A stretch of 64,000 nucleotides of DNA from Chlamydiota bacterium (GCA_036164375.1 JAYZJO010000065.1:3810-67809); one strand, 5' to 3'; counted from the stretch's first letter, positions 9,092 through 52,180 are shown. Notes: generated by a model not told the origin, from the letters alone. Numbers and translations are program-made.

Positions 9092-10258
9092 TCAGCATCC
9101 CATTTCATTTTTTCCATGGAGAACTCTATGATGATAGGTGATTTTCATTTTTACATTACTAGAAGGGAAGTAATCAACTTGTTCTCCCTCAAACTCGTCA
9201 TTATCGTAATGGTACTCTTTCTTTAACACTTCACCAGGATACCACTCCAATAATTCACCTTGGTACTCTCCTTCAACAAGATTGTATTCCGCTCTTTTAT
9301 TTCCTTCACTATCAAATTCTACAATTGGTTCTTTCAATTTACCTAACGAATCATAATTTGCAACGAGAGCATCTCCGCCATTTTCATGCTTACGATAATG
9401 TCTTCCCACTGGGGTTCCCTTAATATATCGTCCCTCGCCTTCAATGATCTCATTTTGAAAATAAAACGATTCTACGCCATTTTTATTTCCGAAAAAATAT
9501 GTGACACAATAACTCACAGTCCCATCGTCATAAAATTTCCTATGTAAACCATGAGCAAGACCATTGAGGTAATGTTTCTCTTCTTGAACTGTTTTATTAG
9601 AATAATATTGGATTGAAGCTGGACTATCATTATCGTCGTGCAACAAGCCGTTAACATAGTTATATTTAGCTTTTAACGTCCCATCTTCATTCCACTCTTC
9701 TTGTATGCCAAAAGGGTGATTTAAAACATAGGTAGCTCGTTCCTTTAACCTCCCATTTTGGTAAAACTGTTCAGCAAGCCCCTGCTTTAATCCATTTTCA
9801 TAATGTATCCTCGAACGAAGTACGCCATCGGAATAGTATTGTTTAGTTGGGCCTCGTAAAAGCCCTTTGTCATACATATAAATGCAATCAATAGATCCTG
9901 AAGAGGTAAACGATATGCAAGGGCCATGTGGCTGAATACGCTCCCCCGTTTCTTTAACAATAGGATCATTTTCGTCCAACAAGATAAGGTCTGTTTCGTA
10001 TGTCAACGCGCCACTGCAGTCATATTCCATTTTTTTTACGGGAATTTTTTGATCATTTGCACGTTCTGATTTATAGAAAATAACAACTTTAGGGGCACCA
10101 CTAGCATATTCTTCAGAAACTGTGAGTTCCCAATCTCCTTGCCGAGAATTTAATTTTATTAAATCTCTAATGCTAGGTAAATCTTTTGATGGCCGACAAC
10201 TAGCTGACGAACTAAAAACGATGAAGATGAAAAAAGACATCAATGTTAATGACTTCAT
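9092..10258 (-). CDS. MORN-repeat-variant (YwqK-like) repeat protein, secreted; 3' end apparently frameshifted
   Basis: 388 aa with a signal peptide (MKSLTLMSFFIFIVFSSSASC). It has many repeats of the Y-x-nG-x-l-x-G type (YYSDGVLRSRIHYENGLKQGLAEQFYQNGRLKE...). The repeat pattern continues in another frame beyond the stop (see findings). Confidence 0.7.
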   Translation of the reverse strand: MKSLTLMSFFIFIVFSSSASCRPSKDLPSIRDLIKLNSRQGDWELTVSEEYASGAPKVVIFYKSERANDQKIPVKKMEYDCSGALTYETDLILLDENDPIVKETGERIQPHGPCISFTSSGSIDCIYMYDKGLLRGPTKQYYSDGVLRSRIHYENGLKQGLAEQFYQNGRLKERATYVLNHPFGIQEEWNEDGTLKAKYNYVNGLLHDDNDSPASIQYYSNKTVQEEKHYLNGLAHGLHRKFYDDGTVSYCVTYFFGNKNGVESFYFQNEIIEGEGRYIKGTPVGRHYRKHENGGDALVANYDSLGKLKEPIVEFDSEGNKRAEYNLVEGEYQGELLEWYPGEVLKKEYHYDNDEFEGEQVDYFPSSNVKMKITYHHRVLHGKNEMGC

Positions 10259-10469: not shown

Positions 10470-12119
10470 TTGTTAAGTAAAAATTTATTTTTTTATTTTT
10501 TTTTGTTTATTACTAACGGCTTTAGATGCTTCGGATCAACCTCTTTGCTAGAGTCGATGACTATAGAGGAAAAGGTTGGTCAAATCCTTATGGTACATTT
10601 CCACGGGGAACAAGCAAATAACGACGCAAAAATACTTATCTCACAAGCTCATGTCGGTGGTTTTATCTACTTTAACTGGTCTAACGGATTAAACACTCCT
10701 CAACAAGTGCAGAATCTCAGTAATGAATTGCAAGAAATCGCCAATCGAAATTTAAATCCTATCCCTCTTCTTATCGCTGTCGACCAAGAAGGAGGTGTAG
10801 TAGCTCGCCTCAAACAAGGTTTCACTGTATTTCCTGGTAATAGTGCAATTGCAAGGACAAATATCCCTTCTTTTGCTGAAAAATGTGCCTATGCTACATC
10901 AATTGAATTAAAAGCTGTTGGAATAAATATGATTCTTGGACCAGTTGTCGATGTGAATGTCAACCCTCTTAATCCTATAATAGGCGTTCGTTCATTTAGT
11001 AACTCACCAGAAACAGTCACTATCTTTGCAAAAGAAGCCTTAAAAGGTTATGAAAGAGCACGTATAATATCTGTCCTCAAACACTTTCCTGGCCATGGAG
11101 ATGTAACTCTTGACTCTCATGCAGATCTTCCGATTGTTGACAAATCCTTAAAAAAACTCAATGAAACAGAACTTTATCCATTTGCTTCTTTATCTAAATA
11201 TGCTAATGCCATAATGACAGCACATTTATTAGTTCCTGCGCTCGATCCTTTTCGCTGTGCAACCCTTTCAAAATACATTATTGAAAATATTCTTCGAAAA
11301 AATTTCAATTACAATGGAGTTGTTATCACAGACTCTTTGGTAATGAAAGGATTTTTGACTAACTGTCCAAATATAGAAGAGGCTGCCATCAGAGCATTTG
11401 AAGCTGGAAGTGATCTATTAATTTTAGGGGGAAAACAACTTCTCGATGAAGATCGATTTGAACTGACTACAAAAGATACGCTTCGTATATACCATCATCT
11501 TTTAGAAGCTGTATACTCAGGACGCATTTCAGAACAAAGACTCAATGCCTCAGTAAATAGAATATTATCTATGAAACAAAAATATAACCTATTTAATTAC
11601 TCTCCTTCAAAAAGCCAAGATATTGAAAGTAACATAAACACGGATTCACACAAAAAACTCGCAAGAGAAATTGCAAATCTTTCCCTAAACAACGATGCAA
11701 ACAACTGCACTCACCCTCAAAAATTTAATGAAATGCGCGTAGCCGTCTTTGCTCCGAAACTCACAGAATACGAAATTAATCACACAAATATCTCTAGAAT
11801 CGGTAAAGAAACAAAAACTATGTTCTTTGAACAACTTAACCCAACTGAAATAGAGTGCGCTATAGCACATAAACTTGTTAATTGGGCAGAAACAATTATC
11901 GTCTGCACCTACAATGCATGGAAAAATGATCGGCAAGTACAATTTATTAAATCGCTTAAAACACTAAACAAACCTATAACGATCATTGCATTGCGCGATC
12001 CACAAGACGGTAAAGTTTTACAAAATGATGTAAATTTTGTGATTTCTACTTTAAGTCCCGATTCATATTCCATACAATCAGCCATCGATATACTAACTGG
12101 AGTAACAAATGCTTTTTAA
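10470..12119 (+). CDS. Glycoside hydrolase family 3 beta-N-acetylhexosaminidase (NagZ-like), with signal peptide
   Basis: 549 aa with a TTG start in the track. GH3 N-terminal domain motifs are present: VGQILMVHF, IAVDQEGGVVARL, GINMILGPVVDV, KHFPGHGDVTLDSH, VITDSLVM. Confidence 0.8.
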   Translation: MLSKNLFFYFFLFITNGFRCFGSTSLLESMTIEEKVGQILMVHFHGEQANNDAKILISQAHVGGFIYFNWSNGLNTPQQVQNLSNELQEIANRNLNPIPLLIAVDQEGGVVARLKQGFTVFPGNSAIARTNIPSFAEKCAYATSIELKAVGINMILGPVVDVNVNPLNPIIGVRSFSNSPETVTIFAKEALKGYERARIISVLKHFPGHGDVTLDSHADLPIVDKSLKKLNETELYPFASLSKYANAIMTAHLLVPALDPFRCATLSKYIIENILRKNFNYNGVVITDSLVMKGFLTNCPNIEEAAIRAFEAGSDLLILGGKQLLDEDRFELTTKDTLRIYHHLLEAVYSGRISEQRLNASVNRILSMKQKYNLFNYSPSKSQDIESNINTDSHKKLAREIANLSLNNDANNCTHPQKFNEMRVAVFAPKLTEYEINHTNISRIGKETKTMFFEQLNPTEIECAIAHKLVNWAETIIVCTYNAWKNDRQVQFIKSLKTLNKPITIIALRDPQDGKVLQNDVNFVISTLSPDSYSIQSAIDILTGVTNAF

Positions 12120-12897
12120 ATTTTTATTACTTACACTTTCTGGGATTTTTCTTTTACAAGAAGCTCACTCAATCACCATCCCACAAGAAACAGCAAAAAA
12201 GATTGGGCTAAAAATATGGTACAACGAATGTGCTGGGACTCTTTCAGGTTTAAGCACATGGAACGATGGCGAAGAATTTGCTTCAATGGGAATAGGTCAT
12301 TTTATTTGGTACCCCAAAGGAAAAGCCGGTCTTTATAAAGAACAATTTCCAAGCCTCCTTAAGTTTCTAGAAGATAATCAAGTTACGCTACCTAAATGGC
12401 TAAATACGAATAAAGAGTGCCCATGGAAAAACAGAGAGGATTTTTTACAAGATACAGAAAGAGAAAAACTTGTAGAACTGCGCACTCTCCTTGTCTCTAC
12501 GGTAGATTTACAGGTTGTATTTATGACACAAAGGCTTGAGCAAGCACTTCCAAAAATGCTCAAGTCTGTTTCTGAAGAAAAAAAAACTCATATCAAGAGA
12601 CAATTTTACCGCGTATCAGAAAATCCCAATGGATTATACGCTCTTTTAGATTACATAAACTTCAAAGGAGAAGGGGCTTCTGAAAAAGAACGCTACAATA
12701 ATCAAGGTTGGGGGCTTCTTCAAGTATTGGAACAGATGCCTATTCATTCAAAAAGTAGTGCCATAGAGGATTTTATTAATTCAGCAAAAACCGTTCTAGC
12801 ACGTCGGGTTGCTAACTCGCCACAAGAACGTGGAGAAAAACGCTGGCTAAAAGGTTGGTTTAATAGATTAAACTCTTATAAAAATAAAAATTCGTAA
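12109..12897 (+). CDS. Secreted hypothetical protein, translationally linked to the GH3 gene
   Basis: 262 aa with signal peptide MLFKFLLLTLSGIFLLQEAHS. It overlaps the upstream GH3 gene by 11 nt. I can name no domain. Confidence 0.45.
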   Translation: MLFKFLLLTLSGIFLLQEAHSITIPQETAKKIGLKIWYNECAGTLSGLSTWNDGEEFASMGIGHFIWYPKGKAGLYKEQFPSLLKFLEDNQVTLPKWLNTNKECPWKNREDFLQDTEREKLVELRTLLVSTVDLQVVFMTQRLEQALPKMLKSVSEEKKTHIKRQFYRVSENPNGLYALLDYINFKGEGASEKERYNNQGWGLLQVLEQMPIHSKSSAIEDFINSAKTVLARRVANSPQERGEKRWLKGWFNRLNSYKNKNS

Positions 12898-13080
12898 ATT
12901 TCAATAAACTAAACCATCAAAAGATAGTAAAGAATTTAAAAGAAAAAAAAAGCAAATTTTATTGCATTATCTTCATTGATCTGATACATGTAAACGAAGA
13001 GAGGGTTACTAACACAGATACAATAATTTCAGTAGCACTTTCAAGGAAGAAAGAACTTAATCCAGGGAAAGGAGTAAGCT

Positions 13081-13647
13081 ATGAAAAAAATTGATCTTAA
13101 AAAACTGGCTGTGATGGGTATTGCAAGCGGTGCGCTTCTCGCATCTCAGTCAGGAGAAGCAGTAAATTACACTCAGTCATCAGGCCAAGGCACTTACCTC
13201 GCAGGAGGTCAAGGTTGCGGAGGATCCAGTGGCTGTGGTGGAAAAAGTCACGGAAGTGATATGAACAACAGAGCTAATGGCAATGGTAATGGTTCATACG
13301 ACTATAATAATGGAAGTAGAACCAACGACAGCGCTAATGGCACAAACTACTACGAAAATAAAGACAACAGCAACAGCGGAAGTCACTGTGGTGGAAAAAG
13401 CAGTTGCGGTGGAAAAAAAGGAAACATGGATGACAAAGACTCTATGAATGATACTGATCATATGAATGATCAGGATCAAAAAATGGATTCCCAGTCTCTT
13501 CCAAGACCTTCTTATCCAGAATCTTACTCTAGCCAATCTCGTTCAGAACACTTCTCACCACGCACAATCAAACACAACGATAACCCTAGTAAAGCGATGA
13601 ACAACTCATCGTATAATAATACTACGAGAAATCGTTACTATCGTTAA
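13081..13647 (+). CDS. Candidate RiPP precursor: Sec-signal, low-complexity N/G/S/D-rich protein with two CGG-x3-CGGK modules
   Basis: 188 aa. A strong SD (aaaggag) lies 7 nt upstream. The signal peptide is MKKIDLKKLAVMGIASGALLASQSGEA. There are only four Cys, in GQGCGGSSGCGGKSHG (C46, C52) and GSHCGGKSSCGGKKG (C103, C109). It sits immediately upstream of the DUF692/DUF2063 genes. Confidence 0.55.
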   Translation: MKKIDLKKLAVMGIASGALLASQSGEAVNYTQSSGQGTYLAGGQGCGGSSGCGGKSHGSDMNNRANGNGNGSYDYNNGSRTNDSANGTNYYENKDNSNSGSHCGGKSSCGGKKGNMDDKDSMNDTDHMNDQDQKMDSQSLPRPSYPESYSSQSRSEHFSPRTIKHNDNPSKAMNNSSYNNTTRNRYYR

Positions 13648-13654
13648 TATTTTT

Positions 13655-13680
13655 CAACAGAGTCCGAAAGGACTCTGTTG
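13655..13680 (+). terminator. Perfect 11-bp stem / GAAA-loop hairpin just after the precursor stop (terminator or attenuator)
   Basis: caacagagtcc-gaaa-ggactctgttg starts 8 nt after the TAA. There is no clean U-run, so it may be a partial terminator or a stability element. Confidence 0.5.
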
Positions 13681-13839
13681 ACCTATCATTTATCTTTCCT
13701 TCCTAACGAACAGCAAAGAACTATACTGATTATTTAACGAAAACCTTGCTGCTGGATTTGGACACAAACCGAATTTAAATTAACTTGACACTCGAGACTC
13801 TTTTTGAAACATTAGAATTAATCACCAAATTGAGGGCAT

Positions 13840-14721
13840 ATGACAGAAAAAAACCTACCTAATTTAGGCATCGGCATAGGGCTACGCCCCATTCATTATG
13901 AAGCCATTTTTAATAATGAACCTGATATCGACTGGTTTGAAATCATCAGCGAAAATTTTATGGTAGATGGAGGAAAGCCACTATACAACCTAAATAAAAT
14001 CCTCGAAAGATATCCGGTCGTTCAACATGGCGTTTCTCTAGCTATTGGTAGCCCCGATCCTCTCGATTTTGACTATTTAAAGAAATTAAAAGCCCTTACT
14101 AAAATAACCAAAACTCCTTGGGTATCAGATCATTTATGCTGGGGCCACCGTCCTGGATCCCACTACCACGACCTTTTACCTCTTCCCTACACGAAAGAAG
14201 TCATCAAATATGTCGTCGAAAGGGCGCGTATCGTACAAGATTATTTAGAACTCCCTTTTGCACTCGAAAATTTATCCTCATATGTCGGTTTTAAAGCCGA
14301 TGAAATGCCCGAATGGGAATTCTATGGAACAATAGTCGAAGAAGCTAACATTTCAATGATGCTCGATATCAACAACATCTATGTTTCAAGTAGAAATCAT
14401 GGATTCGACCCAAATGACTATATCACCAATATTCCCATTAACCGCGTTATTCAAATCCACCTAGCCGGTCATAGTGATTATGGTAAATATGTTCTTGATA
14501 CCCACGATAACCATGTCTGCGACGAAGTATGGCAGCTCTACGCTGAAATTTATCCAAAAACCGGGGGAGTGTCGACTTTGCTCGAATGGGACGACAATTT
14601 TATTAGCTTCGAAGACACGTGGAAAGAAGCCCTGAAAGCAAAACAATTTCAGGAAAATATTGAATCTAAAATTGATAAGAAGATTCATCTCAACAAACCA
14701 AAAAAAACTGTGAGTCAATGA
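13840..14721 (+). CDS. DUF692-family multinuclear non-haem iron oxidase (MNIO; MbnB/HvfB/BufB-like)
   Basis: 293 aa. Family hallmarks are LGIGIGLRPIHYEAIF...IDWFEIISENFMVDGGKPL...YPVVQHGVSLAIGS...PWVSDHLCW...FALENLSSY...LDINNIYVS...IQIHLAGH...LDTHD. Confidence 0.85.
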   Translation: MTEKNLPNLGIGIGLRPIHYEAIFNNEPDIDWFEIISENFMVDGGKPLYNLNKILERYPVVQHGVSLAIGSPDPLDFDYLKKLKALTKITKTPWVSDHLCWGHRPGSHYHDLLPLPYTKEVIKYVVERARIVQDYLELPFALENLSSYVGFKADEMPEWEFYGTIVEEANISMMLDINNIYVSSRNHGFDPNDYITNIPINRVIQIHLAGHSDYGKYVLDTHDNHVCDEVWQLYAEIYPKTGGVSTLLEWDDNFISFEDTWKEALKAKQFQENIESKIDKKIHLNKPKKTVSQ

Positions 14722-15596
14722 ACAAATACGACGAAAAAGTTCCACAATCTCTAAAAAATCTTCAAGACTGGTTTGCTAGTATCATAACTATGCCTATTGA
14801 TGACGACAGTCAAATGAACGCTATATCTCCTTTTGGAACCCCAATGACAAACGAAGCTGCCAAATACATCACCCCTAGCCCCACATTAACACCCGAAAAA
14901 AGAATTCAACTCTACAACCAGCAATATTGGTGGAGGCTTCTCGCAACCTTACACGAAAATTTTCCGACCGCAACTAGCCTTCTTGGTTATCATAATTTTA
15001 ACGATTGGATTGCTGTCCCCTTCTTAAAAGATAACCCACCAGACAATTGGTCACTAAGCTTGCTCGGAGCCAAACTACCGTTGTGGGTACAGGAAAATTA
15101 TCGTAAAGAAGACCGATTGCTAATACTAGAAACAATCTCTATTGACTGGGCTTATGTCTACAGTTTTTATGCGAGTCAATTGCCTACGTTACAAATTACT
15201 GAAGATGGTGATGTTTCTTTTACAAAACTACACCTTCAACCACACTTACAATTATTCACATTACACCACAACCTGCTTCCTTTTAGAGAAAAAATTCTCC
15301 AAAAAAATCCTGAATATTGGTCTACTCATGATATTCCTCCGTTAGAGTGTAAAAACAAATACAGCTTTGTAATTTATCGCAACCATGAGTATAATGTAGG
15401 CTGGTTACAAATTGATAATTATGAATATTCCCTTCTCTCCCAATTTACTAAAGGCCTCACTATTGAGGAGGCATGCCATTGGATAGAAACAAGGGATCTA
15501 GAAACAAAAAAAACCGCTACCCACAATTTGAAAGACTGGTTTCAAAAATGGACAACATGCGGTTGGCTCGGAATAAAAAATGAAAAAACAAAATAA
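14718..15596 (+). CDS. DUF2063-family protein (HvfC/BufC/MbnC-type MNIO partner)
   Basis: 292 aa. Its start overlaps the DUF692 stop by 4 nt (ATGA). The N-terminal pattern matches DUF2063: LKNLQDWFASII...RIQLYNQQYWWRLLATLHENFPTATSLLGYHNFNDWIAVPFLKDNPP. Confidence 0.7.
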   Translation: MNKYDEKVPQSLKNLQDWFASIITMPIDDDSQMNAISPFGTPMTNEAAKYITPSPTLTPEKRIQLYNQQYWWRLLATLHENFPTATSLLGYHNFNDWIAVPFLKDNPPDNWSLSLLGAKLPLWVQENYRKEDRLLILETISIDWAYVYSFYASQLPTLQITEDGDVSFTKLHLQPHLQLFTLHHNLLPFREKILQKNPEYWSTHDIPPLECKNKYSFVIYRNHEYNVGWLQIDNYEYSLLSQFTKGLTIEEACHWIETRDLETKKTATHNLKDWFQKWTTCGWLGIKNEKTK

Positions 15597-16821
15597 AAAA
15601 ATATCCTGCCGAGAAGCAGCTTATCTAGCATACCTCAACTCTCAAAGAGCTGAATCTTTTATTAGCGACTCTCTAATACAGTGGAAAAATTCTACGGAAG
15701 TCCTTGAAAAAGATTATCGTCTCGCACAAGAAATTGCATTTGGAACCTGCAGAATGGCTGCTGCATTAGAATTTTATGCAAAACAACTTACCGATAAAAA
15801 ATTAACTCTTAAAAGAAAAGAGCGCTGTCTTCTCCACACAGCACTATATCAATTTTTTTTCTTAGATAAAATACCTCTATATGCCATTACAAATGAAAGC
15901 ATCTCAATCTCAAAAAAATACTGTCATAACACTTTCACTAAATTTTTAAATGCTGTTCTTCGTAAACTTCCTTCTACTAAATTAACGCTCCCTTCTAACG
16001 ATTCCATAAACTCTTTAGCAATCAGAAATTCTTACCCTACGTTTTTTGTGGAACAACTTATCAAAAGCTATGGGTTAGAACAAGCAAAAGATATATTACA
16101 CTCAGGTAACCTTCCTGGAAAAGTTTTAGCAAGAGTACGCTGCAAAGAACCAACCCTCGAAAAATTTGAAAATAACCAAGTTAATATGGTTCATGTTGAA
16201 AATTCTATAGACCTCCACAAAATAGCCAATACTCCAGACTATTATATTCAAAATATCACTCCTGTTTTACTCCTTAATACTCTAGCACAAAACTTAAATC
16301 CCCCCTCTTCAATCCTAGACCTCTGTTCGTCACCCGGAGGCAAACTTATTGCCTGCCACGATCTATACCCAAATAGTAAGCTGTTTGCGAATGATATATC
16401 CCCACATAAACTCGAAATACTCAAAAAAAATCTACACACATATTCGATAAAAGCAACAGTCACAGAAGGGCCTGGACAAGACTACTCGACTCATGAAAAA
16501 TTTGATTTAATCATTCTTGATGTCCCCTGTTCAAACTCTGGCGTTCTCAATAAACGTCCTGAAGCGCGGTGGCGACTAAGTACAGAAAGCTTAAAAGATC
16601 TCAATACAACACAAGTAAAACTTCTCAACAAAGCCAAAGACCTCCTTAGCGAAAAAGGTGAAATATGGTTTATGACCTGTAGTATCCTTCCCGAAGAAAA
16701 TGAAAAACTCATCGAAACTTTTGCAAAGGAAAACCAATTCAACATACGTACATCAAAGATGATTCTACCAAGTAGCGACGGTTACGATGGAGGATTTGCC
16801 TGCGCTCTCTCGCGTTCTTAG
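15580..16821 (+). CDS. rsmB: 16S rRNA (cytosine967-C5)-methyltransferase RsmB/Sun
   Basis: 413 aa. A NusB-like N-terminal domain is followed by a methyltransferase core with DLCSSPGGK, ILDVPCSNSGV and a TCS motif (FMTCSILPEENE). Confidence 0.8.
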   Translation: MKKQNKKISCREAAYLAYLNSQRAESFISDSLIQWKNSTEVLEKDYRLAQEIAFGTCRMAAALEFYAKQLTDKKLTLKRKERCLLHTALYQFFFLDKIPLYAITNESISISKKYCHNTFTKFLNAVLRKLPSTKLTLPSNDSINSLAIRNSYPTFFVEQLIKSYGLEQAKDILHSGNLPGKVLARVRCKEPTLEKFENNQVNMVHVENSIDLHKIANTPDYYIQNITPVLLLNTLAQNLNPPSSILDLCSSPGGKLIACHDLYPNSKLFANDISPHKLEILKKNLHTYSIKATVTEGPGQDYSTHEKFDLIILDVPCSNSGVLNKRPEARWRLSTESLKDLNTTQVKLLNKAKDLLSEKGEIWFMTCSILPEENEKLIETFAKENQFNIRTSKMILPSSDGYDGGFACALSRS

Positions 16822-28782: not shown

Positions 28783-29559
28783 ATGGGAAAAACACAAATC
28801 ATTTCTATCAGCAGCTTTAAGGGCGGGACAGCAAAAACTTCGTCAGTGATCCACTTAGGTGCCGCTCTAGCTCGATTTCATAAGAAAAAAGTACTGCTCA
28901 TCGACTTCGATGCACAAGCAAATTTAACAACCGGACTCGGATTCGACCCGGATGAAAACGACAGTATGGCGCCGGTTTTACAAAACAAAAAAAAACTCGA
29001 CGACGTCATCATCAAGACCGAATACAAAAATTTAGACCTCGTCCCAGCAGACACGTGGCTCGAACGCGTAGAGGTTTCCGAAAACCTTGCAAGCGACCGT
29101 TACTCCCACGAGCGCCTGCGTGATATCATCAAAGACACCGCCTACGACTTTATTATCATCGACACTCCTCCATCCCTCTGCTGGCTGACAGAGTCTGCGC
29201 TTATTGCCGCTCACCACACTCTTGTTTGTGCTACACCCGAATTTTATAGCGTCAAAGGACTAGAGCGCCTATCGCAGTTTATCGACAGTATCGATCAGCG
29301 TCACCCCTTAAACATACTCGGAGTGCTCCTCTCTTTTTGGAATGCTCGCGGGAAAAACAACTCGGCTTTTTTAGAGGTTATCGAATCAAGCTTTCCAAAA
29401 AAAGCTTTCGACACAAATGTTCGCAGAGACAGCAAAGTTGCTGAAGCCTCCATTTACGGAAAACCCGTCTTCGACACCTCGCCGAAAACACGCGCTGCCG
29501 AAGACTACAAAAGTGTGACAAAACAAATCATAAAAAGACTAAAACTATTGCAGGTGTAA
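28783..29559 (+). CDS. ParA/Soj-family ATPase
   Basis: 258 aa with a deviant Walker A (SSFKGGTAKTSS), LIDFDAQANLT and IIIDTPPSL. Confidence 0.85.
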   Translation: MGKTQIISISSFKGGTAKTSSVIHLGAALARFHKKKVLLIDFDAQANLTTGLGFDPDENDSMAPVLQNKKKLDDVIIKTEYKNLDLVPADTWLERVEVSENLASDRYSHERLRDIIKDTAYDFIIIDTPPSLCWLTESALIAAHHTLVCATPEFYSVKGLERLSQFIDSIDQRHPLNILGVLLSFWNARGKNNSAFLEVIESSFPKKAFDTNVRRDSKVAEASIYGKPVFDTSPKTRAAEDYKSVTKQIIKRLKLLQV

Positions 29560-29584
29560 AGCTGGTTTACATCAGGGGAGATCT

Positions 29585-30322
29585 ATGGGAAAAATACAAA
29601 ACCTATTGACTGAACGCTTAAAGAAAAAAGATAAGTCTAACAAAATGGAAAAAATGTCAAAGCAGTCCGCAAGTGGTAATTTGACAAGTTTTTCAGGAGT
29701 TTTCAATATTGCAGAGCTCAGTTCTCACGAAAAAGACGCTCTACAGAACATTCTTTTAGAGTACAGCAGGGAAACTGAAAGCATCTCCACAGACTTAAAC
29801 ACCTTAATATCAATAACATCTGAAGTTAAAGCAATCACCAACCAAGCAATTCTCCTTCACGGTGAACGCATCAAAAAAGCGCAAACAATCCTCAAAAACT
29901 ATCAAGAAGGGGCCTTTACCGCGTGGTTAATAACCACTTATGGTAACAGGCAAACTCCCTACAACTTCCTTCAGTACTTTGAATTTTTTAACGCCATCCC
30001 CCAAACGCTGCGTCCCCAACTAGAAAAAATGCCGCGGCAAGCGATCTACACTCTTGCAAGCAGGGAAGGCGAGCTCACAAAAAAACAGCAACTGATCGAA
30101 AATTACAGCGGCGAAACAAAGTCCGAATTACTCACAATCATTCGCGACCTATTTCCACTATCGGAAGACGACAAACGAAGACAAAATTTTGGTGAAACGA
30201 CAATTACGACACTAAAACGATTGTCAACAACACTCACAAAACGCACTGGCAAGCTAAACAAGAAGCAAAAAGGTGAAATTGCCGAACTTCTAGACAACAT
30301 CTATGAAATGCTAAAAACATAA
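29585..30322 (+). CDS. Putative ParA partner; pGP6-D-like (chlamydial plasmid partition-associated family), tentative
   Basis: 245 aa, directly downstream of parA. From memory, the thrS-parA(minD)-pGP6-D-related order is conserved in Chlamydiaceae chromosomes. No search was run. Confidence 0.45.
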
Positions 30323-43284: not shown

Positions 43285-43474
43285 TATTACCTTCTTGATC
43301 GTCTGTATCATCTTCTAGCATACGCTTGGCTGGGGTTTCGTCCATATCGAGCCGCCCTTTTCTCCATAGATAAATAAAGATTAATAGAGCTCCACCAAAA
43401 AAAGCTGCGGCAAATGCAAAATGTAAAAGCCCTCCATAAACACCTATACCATCTAAAGTCTTTGCAATCATCAT
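43271..43474 (-). CDS. Small membrane protein, FixS/CcoS-like (or CcoQ-like)
   Basis: 67 aa with one TM segment, then YLWRKGRLDMDETPAKRMLEDD, which resembles the FixS/CcoS W-x3-GQ-DD..R.L.DD tail. It has a 4-nt ATGA overlap with the ccoO stop. Confidence 0.45.
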   Translation of the reverse strand: MMIAKTLDGIGVYGGLLHFAFAAAFFGGALLIFIYLWRKGRLDMDETPAKRMLEDDTDDQEGNNDKK

Positions 43475-44739
43475 GGAAGTTTTCTTTTTCCTTCAATAAT
43501 TTCTTTTGTGTTTATTGGATCTTTTCCTAGCCACCACGCTTGTGTGGGAGGGGTTATTCGCGTGCCCTTAGTCATTAAATATTGATATATCGCTTCGAAG
43601 CGGTAATTTGGGATTCCTATTTTGGAACTACCAGTACCTCTAGGGTCATCGTCGAAGAAATGATAGAACGCTGGCATGATAGAACCTTTACTTGCTGTTT
43701 TTGGTGACCAAAAATGGCTCTTATGCCAGTCTCGGCTAGGTCTTTTGATTCCTACGCGAGAAAGGTCGGGGCCAATTCTTCGCGTTGCAGGAAAGGTGAT
43801 TTCTTGGTAGATGTATTCGTTTGCCGAAGAGGGAGGGGCTGGATAATCTTCGTTTCCGTTTAAAACGACATCCTGAACGAGGGTTCGTGTTTGATCTGAG
43901 TGACAGTACCAACAACCTTCAATTGCATATATGTGTTCACCTTCAAAAATAAGCTCGTGGCGCGATCTAAAACCTAATTCGTGGCTTTTAAGTTCTTCTA
44001 CATTGGCAATTATTTCGCCTTCAGGGTCATATGTCCATCCTTCTTCTGGCCCAAATTTATACCTTGAGACTCTATACTCAAGAGGGTTTAAGACGTAAAT
44101 GACGCCGGGGTCTTTATGATAGTCTTGACGCGTGCTTTCATCTAAAATGGTGTAATTTGTGTCGACCCAATTTTCTAAAACTCCTTCCGATGAACCAAGA
44201 GAAAACCCTTCGTCACTACTTGGCTTGAATAATTCCCAGATGATAAAACTAGGCTTTCGAGAGTCCTTGTTGTCTGTTTTTTCCCATTCAGACTGTAAGT
44301 TTTTTACAAGTTTTTCAGCTTCAGCTTTAGCGTTAAACGCTCCGTCGGCCTCTTTTGGTTCGCGTAGCAGGAGTAAGTCTGAAGTAAGTTTTAATGTAGG
44401 ATCATCTTCTTTTGTAATATATTTTTGTAGATTTTCGGGGGCAACAAAACGTACTGAAGGGGATTCTTGAAAAGCTAAAAGAGTGTACTTGTCTTTGATA
44501 TGATAGACAAACTGTAGCTCGGAGCCTCCTTTGCTTGTATTGCTACTAATGTAGAGATTGGGGTCAGCGACTTCATACATTTGTTTTTGGTAAGCGCTAC
44601 TGGGATTGATCCAGCTTGGATCTAAGTAGGTGGGAGCAACTATAGTGATACTGACAGCTATTGTGAAGAGAATTAAGATGCCAATGACTGTAACTACTGC
44701 TGACCACTCTAGTTTGTAAAAAACATTTTTTCCACTCAT
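43471..44739 (-). CDS. ccoO: cbb3-type cytochrome c oxidase subunit II (CcoO) with a large N-terminal insertion
   Basis: 422 aa with an N-terminal TM segment. The CcoO core is EGCWYCHSDQTRTL...RRIGPDLSRVGIKRPSRDWHKSHFWSPKTASKGSIMPAF. CxxCH sits at residue 276, whereas I recall about 60-70 in canonical CcoO. Confidence 0.7.
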   Translation of the reverse strand: MSGKNVFYKLEWSAVVTVIGILILFTIAVSITIVAPTYLDPSWINPSSAYQKQMYEVADPNLYISSNTSKGGSELQFVYHIKDKYTLLAFQESPSVRFVAPENLQKYITKEDDPTLKLTSDLLLLREPKEADGAFNAKAEAEKLVKNLQSEWEKTDNKDSRKPSFIIWELFKPSSDEGFSLGSSEGVLENWVDTNYTILDESTRQDYHKDPGVIYVLNPLEYRVSRYKFGPEEGWTYDPEGEIIANVEELKSHELGFRSRHELIFEGEHIYAIEGCWYCHSDQTRTLVQDVVLNGNEDYPAPPSSANEYIYQEITFPATRRIGPDLSRVGIKRPSRDWHKSHFWSPKTASKGSIMPAFYHFFDDDPRGTGSSKIGIPNYRFEAIYQYLMTKGTRITPPTQAWWLGKDPINTKEIIEGKRKLP

Positions 44740-46175
44740 GATTCACCCTCGGACTCAACAATTCTTGGTTTTAGAACGATCGTATTAAATATATTGATCA
44801 CGAACAAGATGTTAGCAATAAGAATAATGCTTCCGCCTATTGCTCTTAAAGTCCACCATGGTCGCATTTCGGCAACTGTTTCTAGGAATGGCATCATCGT
44901 TAAATTGTTATGAAATTGTGCATAACTTGTTCCATCAGCCCAGGTTGCCCATAACATTCCTTGAAAGAACCCGCCAACCCATAAAGCGGTAATAAACGGA
45001 AGGCTCCCCAGCAAATTTAGGGAGAAATGCCAGTCGGCTAGTCGCTTAGACCAAAGTGGCTTTCCTGTCATACCCGGGAGAGCTTGATAGATGCCGGCAA
45101 TTGCAAAGTAGGTAAAACTTCCGTATAGGGCAATATGTGCATGACCAATAATCCAGTCAGTTTTTGAGGTAATTTCGTTGATGTTTCTTAAAGCTTGAAC
45201 GGGTCCTTGTATGCACGTTAAAAGATAAAAGACAGTACCGATCATGATAAAGCGAACGGGGGCACTTTGAGTATATTTACTCCACTCTCCTCGCATCGTT
45301 AAAAAGAGGTTGGTAATAACTGAAAACACGGGAATGAATAGCCATAAAGAAAAGACGATCGATGTCGTTTGAAGCCATTGTGTCATTGGGCCGTGAATAA
45401 TGTGGTGAGCTCCGACCCAAGCATAGACAAAAGCAATCGACCAGAACCCGATCATCGAAAGCCTATGACTGTAAATTGGAGTGTTTACTAGCTTAGGTAA
45501 GGAATAATAAGCAGAGGCTAGCCCCATAGGTGTAAAAATAAGACCGACTAAATTATGAACATAGAAAAAACTGAGGTTTACCCGAGATATTCCCCCGGGA
45601 AGAAGATACATTGCCCAGCTACCAGCAACAAATGTGAATGTTGTCCAAATTGCTGTACCCATTGTGTACCAAAGGGAAACATACATTTGCTTGTACTTTC
45701 TGTTGGCGATTGTCATGAAGATGTTGACGACGACTAAAAGCCAGGCAAGGGTTACCATCGTTTTAACGGGAATAATCCATACAAAGTTGGGAAGCTCAGC
45801 ATATTCCCATCCATAGTTTGTGCCCCAGGGGTATGAAAATTCCCCTAATATTAGACCCGGCCACCAAAGGGCAGCGCTGAGATAGGCGAGTTTTGGGCTC
45901 CAAAGTCCCACACCACACAGTCTTTGTATAAAGTAGTAGATTAAGCCGATATCGGCAGAAAGCAGCCACAGCAGTGTCACAGTACCTACGTGTGTAGGTC
46001 TTACGCGCCCAAAGTGTACGTATTCTCCTTGAAAGTAGTCGGGAAACACAAAGCCATTAAAAGCGATGAATACCCCCACAGACATGCCCACAACCATAAA
46101 AAGTACGGCTGGAAATATCATTAATTTACTTGGTAAGTCGTTGTATGTTGTTGTCATATCCCAATCCTCAGTCAC
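44736..46175 (-). CDS. ccoN: cbb3-type cytochrome c oxidase subunit I (CcoN)
   Basis: 479 aa with about 12 TM segments. Haem-copper oxidase His motifs are present (GAHHIIHGPMTQWLQT, GHAHIALYGSFTYF). Its stop overlaps the ccoO start (ATGA). Confidence 0.85.
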   Translation of the reverse strand: MTEDWDMTTTYNDLPSKLMIFPAVLFMVVGMSVGVFIAFNGFVFPDYFQGEYVHFGRVRPTHVGTVTLLWLLSADIGLIYYFIQRLCGVGLWSPKLAYLSAALWWPGLILGEFSYPWGTNYGWEYAELPNFVWIIPVKTMVTLAWLLVVVNIFMTIANRKYKQMYVSLWYTMGTAIWTTFTFVAGSWAMYLLPGGISRVNLSFFYVHNLVGLIFTPMGLASAYYSLPKLVNTPIYSHRLSMIGFWSIAFVYAWVGAHHIIHGPMTQWLQTTSIVFSLWLFIPVFSVITNLFLTMRGEWSKYTQSAPVRFIMIGTVFYLLTCIQGPVQALRNINEITSKTDWIIGHAHIALYGSFTYFAIAGIYQALPGMTGKPLWSKRLADWHFSLNLLGSLPFITALWVGGFFQGMLWATWADGTSYAQFHNNLTMMPFLETVAEMRPWWTLRAIGGSIILIANILFVINIFNTIVLKPRIVESEGES

Positions 46176-51667: not shown

Positions 51668-52180
51668 TTATGCTGTTGGCGTATACCACGCCGCTTCCCA
51701 GTCTAGTGTTGTTTTTGCTTTGTCCACAATCAAGTCGCCAGAGGCCCCTTGGTAAACCGTATAAAAGTTGAGGTCTTGAGGGGCCGGACCCCCTGTAACT
51801 CTTCCCCATCGGTCGTAGGTCGATCCATGACAAGGACATGAGTATCCTGTTTCTACTGCATTAATTGTGCATCCTAGATGTGTACAAACAGCAGTTTGTA
51901 CGCGAACCTTTCCAGCTTTTGTTTCGACAAAAACTTTTTGTTTTGGATCAAAAACTTTTCCATCTTTTGCAAGAACCTCTTCGGGGCGTCCCAAAGAAAA
52001 AGAGCTTGGAGGCACTTTCATTGCATTTGGGTAAAGAAATCCAAGCATCGAAGCGCCAAACATTTGTCCAGCACCAACGAGGCAGGCCCCCACGCCCATA
52101 AGTGCGAGGAATGAACGTCTAGAGATTTTTGGATCCTTATCATCGGAATCAACATTGAGTGAGTTTCTATGTTTTGGCAC
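51668..52180 (-). CDS. Rieske [2Fe-2S] protein with a twin-arginine signal
   Basis: 170 aa with the Tat motif ISRRSFLALMG (coded at about 52106-52123). The cluster boxes are CTHLGCT and CPCHGS. Confidence 0.9.
   Translation of the reverse strand: MPKHRNSLNVDSDDKDPKISRRSFLALMGVGACLVGAGQMFGASMLGFLYPNAMKVPPSSFSLGRPEEVLAKDGKVFDPKQKVFVETKAGKVRVQTAVCTHLGCTINAVETGYSCPCHGSTYDRWGRVTGGPAPQDLNFYTVYQGASGDLIVDKAKTTLDWEAAWYTPTA

What the first reader, a model, noticed from the sequence alone, without database searches (positions are those of the whole stretch)
13081..15596. Precursor + DUF692 (MNIO) + DUF2063 cluster: a bufferin/HvfA/methanobactin-style RiPP system in a chlamydia-like genome
Seen in the sequence:
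- Three consecutive + strand genes occupy this interval.
- The first is a 188-aa protein with a Sec signal. Its only four cysteines sit in two near-identical modules, CGGSSGCGGK and CGGKSSCGGK.
- The second is a textbook DUF692 protein (GIGLRP..DWFEIISENFM..HGVSLAIGS..SDHLCW).
- The third is a DUF2063 protein whose ATG overlaps the DUF692 stop (ATGA).

Established knowledge: DUF692 enzymes are multinuclear non-haem iron oxidases (MbnB, HvfB, BufB, TglH, ChrH). With a partner protein (MbnC, or DUF2063-type HvfC/BufC) they oxidise Cys residues of ribosomal precursors. The products are oxazolone/thioamide or thiooxazole metal-binding groups, mostly copper-related.

Inference: this locus makes an exported, Cys-derived metallophore-like peptide or protein. 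Several things look unusual:
- The host lineage appears to be an obligate intracellular Chlamydiae-type organism.
- No DoxX (BufD-like) gene, transporter or copper gene lies adjacent.
- The cluster is wedged between a peptidoglycan hydrolase pair and rsmB, which overlaps the DUF2063 gene by 17 nt.
- The precursor fits neither the DUF2282-type nor the EGKCG-repeat precursors as I remember them.
Basis: partly seen in the sequence, partly recalled or inferred. Interest (0 to 1): 0.85.

Follow-up and report, generated by a model that had tools for sequence, protein, structure and literature searches.

The report
Chlamydial bufferin-type locus, unclassified precursor
This is a bufferin/captophorin-type gene cluster: an iron oxidase and its chaperone that turn cysteines of a secreted protein into copper-binding rings; such clusters prove common in amoeba-associated chlamydiae, and the only new thing here is that the sole adjacent substrate protein fits none of the described precursor families.

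Summary
Three co-directional genes encode a 188-aa Sec-signal protein with four Cys in two CGG…CGGK modules, an MNIO enzyme that passes NCBI's BufB equivalog cut-off, and a DUF2063 partner. The partner's AlphaFold model best matches NGO1945 (3DEE), the archetypal PME-type-1 partner.

Most features called unusual are ordinary:
- BufB at 75-83% identity occurs in more than 100 protein clusters; the named ones are Chlamydiota (Parachlamydia, Waddlia, Estrella).
- The order GH3 – 262-aa protein – precursor(s) – bufB – bufC – rsmB recurs across these relatives.
- Published censuses already count MNIO-PME1 clusters in Parachlamydiales.
- The Caulobacter buf2 cluster also lacks DoxX.

The precursor is new. 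It belongs to an undescribed family found only in chlamydial loci ("a-type"): a conserved signal peptide, then YLAG-GCGGxxGCGG, then a disordered N/G/S-rich tail. In most relatives it sits beside, or is fused to, a BufA2-like 6-Cys precursor ("b-type"). This window and one relative (L019) carry only the a-type.

Most likely BufB/BufC convert the Cx5C cysteines to 5-thiooxazoles before Sec export, giving a periplasmic copper buffer. The chemistry and the metal are inferred, not shown.

Verdict: a known kind of system with a new precursor variant; moderate interest.

The parts
13070..13074 (+). Shine-Dalgarno AGGAG, 6 nt upstream of the precursor ATG
   Evidence: Read directly from the sequence.
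13081..13647 (+). Precursor gene (a-type, 188 aa): a Sec signal peptide, two Cx5C CGG modules and a disordered tail rich in S, N, G and D
   Evidence: ORF. No Pfam or NCBIfam hit. A full HMMER scan found 31 relatives at E<=1e-3, all sharing the signal peptide and the first module. Orthologues lie directly upstream of bufB, or of a b-type gene and bufB, in L018, L019, L021/22, L004, L009 and L024.
13081..13161 (+). Signal peptide, residues 1 to about 24-27 (MKKIDLKKLAVMGIASGALLASQS|GEA). It is conserved between a-type and b-type precursors of the clade.
   Evidence: Hydropathy profile and N-terminal alignment of 22 precursors. The cleavage site is inferred; no SignalP was available.
13216..13245 (+). 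Cys module 1, CGGSSGCGGK (Cys46, Cys52), preceded by the conserved YLAG motif. Proposed MNIO target.
   Evidence: Cys46/Cys52 with Cx5C spacing recur at the same positions in L018a, L019a and L020ab. The same motif follows the signal peptide of several b-type precursors.
13387..13416 (+). Cys module 2, CGGKSSCGGK (Cys103, Cys109). Proposed MNIO target.
   Evidence: L018a has a matching second module, GCGSKSGCG, with Cx5C spacing. Second modules also occur in P0138, P0143, P0144 and P0149.
13423..13485 (+). Met/Asp/His-rich tract MDDKDSMNDTDHMNDQDQKMD just after module 2. It may supply auxiliary metal ligands (inference).
   Evidence: Translation. P0141 has a comparable D/H/M-rich tract.
13654..13681 (+). 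12-bp stem with a GAAA loop, 7 nt after the precursor stop codon. It is likely a partial terminator or mRNA-stabilising element that raises precursor transcript levels relative to the enzymes (inference).
   Evidence: Terminator-like hit. Minimum free energy -21.1 kcal/mol, z = -6.2, 0 of 200 shuffles as stable. The T-tail is weak (CCTATCATTT).
13840..14721 (+). bufB: MNIO (DUF692) oxidase of the BufB type
   Evidence: PF05114 at E 4.8e-104. NF050167 MNIO_BufB 325 bits against a cut-off of 310. Best PDB match 3BWW at E 4.6e-51. The motifs HG(63), SDH(96-98), E143, D176..N179, H207/H211, D220-x-H222 and E249-W-D251-D252 are intact.
14718..15596 (+). bufC: PME-type-1 partner (DUF2063 domain plus an RRE-like C-terminal domain), translationally coupled to bufB through an ATGA overlap
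   Evidence: PF09836 at 44.1 bits; PF22106 NGO1945_C at E 5.9e-4, below its cut-off. AlphaFold2 model with pLDDT 94.4. Best Foldseek PDB hit is 3DEE NGO1945 (E 6.7e-7, target TM 0.71), followed by TglI.
15580..16821 (+). rsmB (16S rRNA m5C methyltransferase). It is a conserved downstream neighbour, not part of the system.
   Evidence: Pfam NusB plus Methyltr_RsmB-F. rsmB follows bufC in L001, L003, L004, L006, L010, L011, L012, L020, L021 and L025.
10470..12897 (+). Conserved upstream neighbours: a GH3 (NagZ-like) gene at 10470-12119 and a 262-aa secreted protein of unknown family at 12109-12897
   Evidence: Pfam Glyco_hydro_3. The same gene order occurs in L018, L021/22 and L024. The 262-aa homologue stays next to the cluster in L019, where GH3 is absent.

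Best explanation
The locus is a bufferin/captophorin-type RiPP cluster (precursor – bufB – bufC) of the lineage-conserved kind found in environmental Chlamydiota.

Proposed mechanism:
1. The 188-aa precursor is translated in the cytoplasm.
2. BufC, a DUF2063 + RRE-fold PME-type-1 partner made in 1:1 coupling with BufB, binds the precursor's conserved N-terminal region (the signal peptide and the YLAG segment).
3. BufC presents the Cys residues to the multinuclear-iron oxidase BufB.
4. BufB uses O2 to carry out a four-electron oxidation of each target Cys, giving a 5-thiooxazole (−4 Da each).
5. The modified protein is exported by Sec and its signal peptide is removed.
6. The paired heterocycles of each Cx5C module, possibly helped by the adjacent Met/Asp/His tract, chelate copper in the periplasm. 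This would buffer copper stress such as amoebal or phagocyte copper poisoning.

Shown here:
- Gene identities, family membership of both enzymes and intact catalytic motifs.
- The fold of BufC.
- Conservation of the precursor family, its Cys modules and its linkage to bufBC.

Inferred:
- That the CGG-module Cys, rather than only the C-K Cys of the b-type paralogue absent here, are substrates.
- The thiooxazole chemistry.
- Copper as the metal.
- The physiological role.
For: Enzymes:
- BufB passes the BufB equivalog cut-off and matches PF05114 over its full length.
- Its motifs align with those of 3BWW. They include the residues aligned to HvfB N175/D242/H244 and to the catalytic base FonB-D249.
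- BufC carries the DUF2063 signature. Its confident model matches NGO1945 (3DEE), TglI and MbnC, with RRE proteins further down the list.
- The 4-nt bufB/bufC overlap is conserved in relatives.

Precursor and linkage:
- All 16 chlamydial loci with upstream DNA have signal-peptide, Cys-bearing ORFs directly before bufB.
- The a-type module is conserved in position, and the same module also sits inside b-type (BufA2-like) precursors.
- Its Cx5C spacing and C-x-G pattern equal the repeat of the BufA2 6-Cys domain (spacings 5,5,6,5,5).
- The two a-only loci (this window and L019) keep intact BufB at 80-83% identity to loci with both types. This argues that the a-type alone sustains selection on the enzymes.

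Published chemistry:
- Bufferin Cys are converted to 5-thiooxazoles by MNIO + DUF2063, the product is exported by Sec, it binds copper, and the genes are induced by copper (PMC11626156).
- The captophorin enzyme FonBC prefers a Cys-Gly dyad and modified an NVCGG motif once (PMC13097082).
Against: - BufB carries Asp252 at the FonB-Phe250 site. This is the signature of MNIOs whose substrates have a Cys-Lys dyad, yet every Cys of this precursor is followed by Gly-Gly.
- A b-type gene elsewhere in the MAG, outside the 64-kb window, cannot be excluded.
- In L023, a-type and b-type genes sit without an adjacent MNIO.
- The precursor matches no curated bufferin or oxazolin model.
- No copper-responsive regulator, DoxX or copper gene lies nearby.
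- There is no experimental data for any chlamydial system.
Confidence: 0.6

Rival explanations
1. The a-type protein is not an MNIO substrate. BufB/BufC serve a BufA2-like (b-type) precursor encoded elsewhere in this genome. The 188-aa protein is merely a co-located secreted, disordered protein whose Cys form disulfides or bind metal as plain thiolates.
For: - BufB keeps the Cys-Lys-type Asp252 signature, while the a-type protein has no C-K dyad.
- Most relatives do carry a b-type gene.
- Published work notes precursor genes away from MNIO genes in some genomes (PMC12452194).
- L023 shows that precursor genes can be unlinked from bufBC.
Against: - No b-type domain, CKG-type motif or family-type signal peptide exists anywhere else in the 64-kb window.
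- The a-type gene always occupies the canonical precursor slot, in the same orientation.
- It shares the b-type signal peptide.
- The CGG module also occurs within b-type precursors and fused a+b proteins, which are bona fide substrates by homology.
- Its Cys are the only strictly conserved residues outside the signal peptide.
Confidence: 0.25
2. The cluster is a decaying remnant. Loss of the b-type gene marks the start of pseudogenisation in a reduced intracellular genome, and the products no longer function.
For: - The b-type gene present in the closest syntenic relative (L018) is missing here. It is replaced by a 192-bp spacer with no detectable homology.
- Chlamydiaceae have lost the system entirely (Table S4 of PMC12452194).
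Against: - All three ORFs are intact.
- BufB is 83% identical to L018 and has every catalytic motif.
- The translational coupling, the Shine-Dalgarno sequence and both Cys modules are preserved.
- An independent locus (L019) shows the same a-only arrangement.
Confidence: 0.07
3. The enzymes do modify the a-type protein, but the product is not a copper buffer. It could bind another metal, act in redox or sulfur stress, or be an envelope or inclusion-lumen protein whose heterocycles serve a structural or host-directed role.
For: - No copper gene or regulator lies adjacent.
- The bufferin authors themselves suggest roles with other metals and stresses (PMC12452194).
- The long, disordered N/S/G-rich tail is unlike compact bufferins.
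Against: - Every characterised member with a PME-type-1 partner (Buf1, Buf2, oxazolin, fontiphorin) is a copper-binding thiooxazole peptide.
- The Met/His/Asp tract is compatible with copper binding (inference).
Confidence: 0.08

Closest known systems
Bufferin 2 system of Caulobacter vibrioides (bufA2-bufB2-bufC2; BUF_6/12Cys precursor; the 'Cys-Lys' captophorin group)
   Same: - A three-gene cluster without DoxX, with a Sec-signal precursor.
- The MNIO passes the BufB equivalog cut-off and carries the Cys-Lys-type Asp after the catalytic Asp.
- The partner is a PME-type-1 protein.
- Relatives of this locus encode a 6-Cys domain that hits the BufA2 model at E about 1e-10.

   Different: - The window's precursor lacks the 6-Cys domain and any C-K dyad. 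It has two isolated Cx5C CGG modules in a disordered 161-aa mature protein.
- Even the chlamydial b-type domains score below the BufA2 cut-off (27-41 bits against 60) and carry an extra helical N-terminal extension.

Oxazolin/HvfA-HvfB-HvfC of Haemophilus influenzae and fontiphorin FonABC (EGKCG-repeat, 'Lys-Cys' captophorins)
   Same: - The same MNIO + PME-type-1 + Sec-signal precursor logic.
- The modified Cys is followed by Gly.
- The substrates are repeat-like, Gly-rich and probably unstructured.

   Different: - There are no EGKCG repeats and no Lys before Cys.
- BufB scores 244 bits against the HvfB cut-off of 360, and BufC scores 23.5 bits against the HvfC cut-off of 142.
- BufB has Asp where Lys-Cys enzymes have Phe, and one Arg instead of two.
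Bufferin 1 (DUF2282 BufA1 with BufB1, BufC1 and DoxX BufD1)
   Same: The same enzyme pair, Sec export and thiooxazole copper-binding paradigm.
   Different: There is no DUF2282 hit, no DoxX and no SigF/NrsF regulators nearby.
Methanobactin MbnA-MbnB-MbnC
   Same: The MNIO superfamily and oxidative conversion of Cys to a metal-binding heterocycle.
   Different: - The MbnB model scores 46 bits against a cut-off of 325.
- The partner is DUF2063/NGO1945-like. MbnC is only a weak structural hit (E about 0.2).
- The precursor has a Sec signal rather than a leader peptide, and no TonB or MATE export genes are present.

Membership tests
MNIO superfamily / BufB (NCBIfam NF050167, Pfam PF05114) | Full-length match to the family profile above the curated cut-off | tested here: met
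   PF05114 at 347.7 bits (cut-off 25), covering model positions 1-262 of 263. NF050167 MNIO_BufB at 325 bits against a cut-off of 310. HvfB, ApyH, ChrH and MbnB are all below their cut-offs.
MNIO superfamily / BufB | Conserved iron-ligand and catalytic-base residues | tested here: met
   H63, H98 (in SDH), E143, D176, N179, H207/H211, D220, H222, E249 and D251 are present. They are identical to the aligned residues of 3BWW where that alignment covers them. Published essential residues are HvfB N175/D242/H244 and FonB D249. The mapping is by motif alignment only, not by a structure with bound metal.
MNIO superfamily / BufB | O2- and iron-dependent four-electron oxidation of substrate Cys | not testable with these tools
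   This needs co-expression or in-vitro reconstitution followed by mass spectrometry.
PME-type 1 partner (BufC/HvfC; DUF2063 + RRE fold) | DUF2063 Pfam signature | tested here: met
   PF09836 at 44.1 bits against a cut-off of 27.2, covering residues 16-123.
PME-type 1 partner (BufC/HvfC; DUF2063 + RRE fold) | Two-domain fold like NGO1945 (PDB 3DEE), with a C-terminal RRE-type domain, and a length of about 250-300 aa | tested here: met
   The protein is 292 aa. The AlphaFold2 model has pLDDT 94.4 and pTM 0.89. The top Foldseek hit is 3DEE (E 6.7e-7, probability 1.00, target TM 0.71), followed by TglI; RRE proteins (TbiB1, lasso B1) appear lower in the list. PF22106 NGO1945_C is sub-threshold here (20.6 bits against 27) but was pre-computed in many close homologues.
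PME-type 1 partner (BufC/HvfC; DUF2063 + RRE fold) | HvfC equivalog (NF050145) score | tested here: not met
   23.5 bits against a cut-off of 142. The protein is not an HvfC equivalog. NCBI names one chlamydial homologue 'HvfC/BufC family peptide modification chaperone'.
Bufferin 1 precursor (DUF2282) | DUF2282 profile match with four conserved Cys | tested here: not met
   No Pfam family at E<=0.01.
Bufferin 2 precursor (BufA2, NF050166 / BUF_6/12Cys) | Profile match, with 6 or 12 Cys in a C-K-G-type knot | tested here: not met
   The window precursor has no NCBIfam hit at E<=0.1 and only 4 Cys, none followed by Lys. The relatives' b-type proteins hit at E 1.5e-10 to 3.9e-6 but score below the cut-off.
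Buf_EGKCG / oxazolin (HvfA) precursor | Repeated EGKCG (Lys-Cys) 5-mers | tested here: not met
   The sequence has no K-C dyad and no EGKCG. Its motifs are GCGGS, GCGGK, HCGGK and SCGGK. No NCBIfam hit. The published Buf_EGKCG HMM itself was not available to run.
'CxxxxC' precursor family (PMC12452194) | Conserved Cx4C motifs, often with a Lactamase_B_2 gene in the cluster | tested here: inconclusive
   The spacing here is Cx5C, and no Lactamase_B_2 gene lies nearby. The authors' HMM was not available.
Captophorin / bufferin-like BGC (class level) | MNIO + PME-type-1 + adjacent Cys-bearing precursor with a Sec signal peptide | tested here: met
   The signal peptide was judged from sequence features only. 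The arrangement is conserved in 16 of 16 chlamydial loci with upstream DNA.
Captophorin / bufferin-like BGC (class level) | 5-thiooxazole product that binds copper | not testable with these tools
   This needs mass spectrometry, UV (about 305 nm), NMR and metal-binding assays.

The most novel reading that the evidence does not exclude
The a-type proteins would be a fourth, so far chlamydia-only class of MNIO/PME-1 substrates. They have a conserved signal peptide, then YLAG-GCGGxxGCGG, then a disordered N/G/S-rich tail. Each minimal two-Cys 'CGG' module would be converted into a thiooxazole pair. In lineages like this one, they would have replaced the compact BufA2-type bufferin as the only product. 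The enzyme would therefore accept Cys-Gly-Gly sites despite its Cys-Lys-type active-site signature. Amoeba-associated chlamydiae would then secrete an intrinsically disordered metallophore protein into the periplasm to cope with host copper.
Probability: 0.45. Interest if true: 0.55.

Novelty: new variant of a known kind. Interest (0 to 1): 0.4.

Why it matters
If the CGG modules are modified, the substrate range of bufferin-type MNIOs widens. It would then include minimal two-Cys sites embedded in long disordered proteins, and the proposed link between the enzyme's Asp/Phe site and the residue flanking Cys would need revising.

The result also closes an annotation gap. Published precursor HMMs return zero precursors for Protochlamydia and Waddlia, although both carry the enzyme pair. 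NCBI's BufA2 model misses even the chlamydial 6-Cys domains.

Biologically, it points to copper buffering as a conserved trait of amoeba-associated chlamydiae. Chlamydia trachomatis and C. muridarum genomes have none of these genes in that table, and Simkania lacks the enzyme pair. The trait is testable in cultivable species such as Estrella lausannensis and Waddlia chondrophila.

The system type itself is already well known, so the advance is incremental.

Tried and rejected
- Lost or displaced BufA2-type gene in the window. tblastn with 16 relatives' precursors at E<=10, plus a regex scan of all six frames, found only the 13081-13647 ORF.
- Remnant of the b-type gene in the 192-bp spacer between the precursor and bufB. 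No homology to the L018 b gene or to the L019 spacer, and no Cys-rich frame.
- Sequence search of BufC against the PDB, with the single sequence and with a 6-sequence profile. No hits. The fold was established by AlphaFold2 and Foldseek instead.
- Word-indexed homologue search with the precursor. It returned only the precursor itself and one relative. The exhaustive HMMER scan was needed to find the family.
- Lipoprotein reading of 'LAG..GC'. Rejected because the Cys lies about 20 residues beyond the hydrophobic core and the -3 to +1 positions do not form a lipobox (sequence inspection).
- Identity of the 262-aa upstream protein. No hit in Pfam, NCBIfam, PHROGs or PDB sequences. It remains unknown.
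- Promoter scan upstream of the precursor. No sigma-70-like site on the + strand above background.
- Literature search for chlamydial MNIO work. No dedicated paper turned up, only counts in census tables.


Full report
**Observation.**
- The first ORF (13081-13647, 188 aa) follows an AGGAG Shine-Dalgarno sequence. It begins with a typical Sec signal: a Lys-rich n-region, a 13-residue hydrophobic core and an SQS/GEA c-region.
- Its only cysteines are residues 46, 52, 103 and 109. They lie in CGGSSGCGGK and CGGKSSCGGK, so each module is a Cx5C pair and every Cys is followed by Gly-Gly.
- Shuffling the mature sequence gives two equal short Cys pairs in 0.3% of trials and never gives four CGG contexts.
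- The rest of the mature protein is S/N/G/D-rich and strongly hydrophilic. A Met/Asp/His-rich tract sits directly after module 2.

**The enzymes.**
- The second ORF (13840-14721) matches Pfam MbnB_TglH_ChrH over the full model at E 4.8e-104.
- It passes NCBI's curated equivalog cut-off for the bufferin maturase BufB (325 against 310 bits). It falls below the cut-offs for HvfB, ApyH, ChrH and MbnB.
- Its closest solved relative is the DUF692 protein 3BWW at E 4.6e-51.
- All conserved metal-ligand and catalytic motifs are present. These include the residues aligned with the published essential positions HvfB N175/D242/H244 and the catalytic base FonB-D249.
- The third ORF (14718-15596) overlaps the bufB stop codon in ATGA. 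It carries the DUF2063 signature above threshold and the NGO1945 C-terminal domain just below threshold.
- Sequence searches against the PDB found nothing for this protein. An AlphaFold2 model built on 41 homologues is confident (pLDDT 94.4).
- Its best structural match is NGO1945 (3DEE), the archetype of the DUF2063 + RRE 'PME-type 1' partners. TglI and, weakly, MbnC follow.
- Both enzyme assignments are therefore confirmed.

**Comparative context.** The system is not an oddity of this genome.
- The window comes from a Chlamydiota MAG and encodes a Protochlamydia-type Pom porin.
- BufB homologues at 75-83% identity fill the 120 best-scoring of 7,991 hits. The named ones are from Parachlamydia and from unnamed Chlamydiota/Chlamydiales MAGs.
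- A scan of species-representative genomes with BufC returned 13 chlamydial loci, including Waddlia and a Parachlamydiaceae isolate (HS-T3), plus distant Verrucomicrobiota and Acidobacteriota loci.
- bufB-bufC-rsmB synteny holds in most chlamydial loci. GH3 and the 262-aa gene lie upstream of the precursor genes in L018, L021 and L022, with two minus-strand genes intervening in L021/L022; L024 has GH3 only, and L019 only the 262-aa homologue.
- The literature already counts these clusters:
  - The bufferin paper lists the Planctomycetes/Verrucomicrobia/Chlamydia group among MNIO-bearing taxa (PMC11626156).
  - Table S4 of the landscape paper gives Protochlamydia amoebophila and Waddlia chondrophila one MNIO and one DUF2063 each. 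The Chlamydia trachomatis and C. muridarum genomes seen in that table have none (PMC12452194).
  - The captophorin paper tallies 11 MNIO-PME1 clusters in Parachlamydiales (PMC13097082 SI Table S3).
- The absence of DoxX is also normal, because the characterised Caulobacter buf2 cluster lacks bufD.

**The precursor is the new element.**
- It hits no Pfam or NCBIfam model. A word-indexed search found only itself and one relative.
- Reading the DNA upstream of bufB in the related loci shows two recurring precursor types that share one strongly conserved signal peptide, MKKxD[FL]KKLAxxG[IL]xxG.
- 'b-type' proteins end in a 6-Cys domain with spacings 5,5,6,5,5 (C-x-G-x-N-x-C-K-G…). This domain hits NCBI's BufA2 model at E 1.5e-10 to 3.9e-6, yet below the curated cut-off of 60 bits.
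- That explains why the published HMMs report zero precursors in Protochlamydia and Waddlia.
- 'a-type' proteins have the signal peptide, a YLAG motif, a GCGGxxGCGG module about 20 residues after the cleavage site, and a low-complexity tail that often carries a second Cx5C module.
- The window protein is an a-type. Its closest syntenic counterpart is L018a (128 aa), which has Cys at 46/52 and a second GCGSKSGCG module.
- Fused a+b proteins exist (L001, L020, L012, L007), and several b-types carry the CGG module after their signal peptide.
- An exhaustive HMMER scan of 1.84 billion representative proteins, using residues 1-126, found 31 members at E<=1e-3. All share the same N-terminal architecture and have variable tails.
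- One member is annotated only as 'hypothetical/putative secreted protein' in the cultivable Estrella lausannensis. There it sits in GH3 – a – b – bufB – bufC.
- Of 16 chlamydial loci with readable upstream DNA, all have a Cys-bearing signal-peptide ORF next to bufB. About 12 have the a-type module and about 13 have the b-type domain.
- Two loci, this window and L019, have a-type only. The divergent L013 and Waddlia (L011) loci also lack the 6-Cys b-type domain.
- No b-type domain, CKG motif or second family-type signal peptide exists elsewhere in the 64-kb window. The 192-bp spacer before bufB keeps no trace of one.

**Mechanism.** By homology with characterised systems, the following sequence is most likely.
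1. BufC binds the precursor's N-terminal region. The bufferin authors report preliminary evidence that the signal peptide is part of the recognition sequence. The near-identity of a-type and b-type signal peptides fits this.
2. BufB oxidises the target Cys to 5-thiooxazoles.
3. The Sec system exports the product, which chelates copper.

Several observations support the CGG-module Cys as targets:
- Their positions are conserved while the surrounding sequence diverges freely.
- Their Cx5C / C-x-G pattern is the same as the BufA2 repeat.
- The module occurs inside bona fide b-type precursors.
- BufB and BufC remain intact and highly conserved in a-only loci.
- Another captophorin MNIO, FonBC, prefers a Cys-Gly dyad and modified an NVCGG motif once.

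The main counter-evidence concerns the active site:
- 97 of the 120 best-scoring BufB homologues, and 14 of the 15 chlamydial loci where the motif was found, carry E-W-D-D-N; this window's BufB is among them. The second Asp sits at the FonB-Phe250 position. That signature is reported for enzymes whose substrates have Lys after Cys, and this precursor has none.
- A b-type gene outside the window cannot be excluded.
- L023 shows precursor genes unlinked from an MNIO.
- I therefore put about 0.9 on 'bufferin/captophorin-type cluster' and about 0.5-0.6 on 'these four Cys are modified and bind copper'.

A strong hairpin lies 7 nt after the precursor stop codon (−21.1 kcal/mol, z = −6.2). It would fit differential expression of the precursor and the enzymes, but its T-tail is weak.

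**Comparison with known systems, and verdict.**
- At class level the cluster meets the definition of a bufferin-like/captophorin BGC: MNIO + PME-type 1 + Sec-signal Cys precursor.
- The enzyme is a BufB by NCBI's equivalog test, and the partner is PME-type 1 by signature and fold.
- The precursor fails every tested precursor family: DUF2282, BufA2 and EGKCG. The CxxxxC family could not be tested.
- I rate it a new variant of a known kind.
- What remains is an undescribed precursor family known so far only from chlamydial loci, and a natural 'a-only' configuration. The latter gives a clean test of whether bufferin-type MNIOs accept minimal CGG sites in a disordered protein.

Noticed in passing
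window 12109-12897 (+); L018 2011-2802; L019 2514-3320; L021 9-788: A 262-aa secreted protein (motifs GIGHFIW and GWGLLQVLE) has no hit in Pfam, NCBIfam, PHROGs or PDB sequences. It overlaps the GH3 stop codon here. In L019 it stays next to the buf cluster even though GH3 is absent there, so it may be functionally tied to either neighbour.
   Followed up: partly
window 13654-13681 (+): A perfect 12-bp stem with a GAAA tetraloop lies immediately after the precursor stop codon (−21.1 kcal/mol, z = −6.2). Its T-tail is weak. It may act as an attenuator or mRNA stabiliser between the precursor and the enzyme genes.
   Followed up: partly
L004 4714-5130, L006 4523-5005, L009 4697-5146, L018 3486-3974, L021 3384-3866, L024 4033-4479: Chlamydial b-type precursors combine a conserved helical segment (GYHLMTEDELLLELN.EG…LA.KVAS) with a BufA2-like 6-Cys knot. 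They score 27-41 bits on NF050166 (cut-off 60). Published HMMs report no precursors in Protochlamydia or Waddlia. This is an annotation gap.
   Followed up: partly
proteins P0123, P0128, P0129, P0133, P0140, P0142, P0151: These family members keep the signal peptide, the CGG module and the helical 'LALKLA…DKN.AVK' domain but lack the six Cys of the knot. The Cys knot therefore looks like an insertable or losable element.
   Followed up: no
L023 3501-5190: The a-type and b-type precursor genes are followed by an OmpR-type response regulator instead of bufB/bufC. No MNIO lies in the 2.1 kb of contig downstream of the a-type gene or in the 3.5 kb of the locus upstream.
   Followed up: no
L011 4192-4524 (Waddlia chondrophila MAG): The ORF upstream of bufB is a 110-aa signal-peptide protein with a single C-terminal Cx5C (CKSTPGC). 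It is possibly the minimal substrate of the clade.
   Followed up: no
window 13840-14721 and 120 homologues: 97 of the 120 best-scoring BufB homologues carry E-W-D-D-N, and 119 have a single Arg in G-I-G-[ILV]-G-L-R, where 3BWW, the enzyme's closest solved relative, has Arg-Arg. This is the 'Cys-Lys' specificity signature of PMC13097082. It is retained even in loci that have only CGG-type precursors.
   Followed up: yes
window 28783-30322 (+): A ParA-type ATPase gene (AAA_31/CbiA) is followed by a UPF0137 gene (E 3e-94). From memory, UPF0137 is associated with chlamydial plasmid pGP6-D-like proteins. Here the pair sits within what looks like chromosomal context.
   Followed up: no
window 43471-46175 (−) and 51668-52180 (−): FixO-like and COX1 subunits suggest a cbb3-type haem-copper oxidase, and a Rieske protein lies nearby. 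The organism therefore has a periplasm-facing copper demand about 30 kb from the buf locus.
   Followed up: no
window 9092-10258 (−); L019 1-1252: MORN-repeat proteins lie near the buf neighbourhood both in the window and in L019.
   Followed up: no
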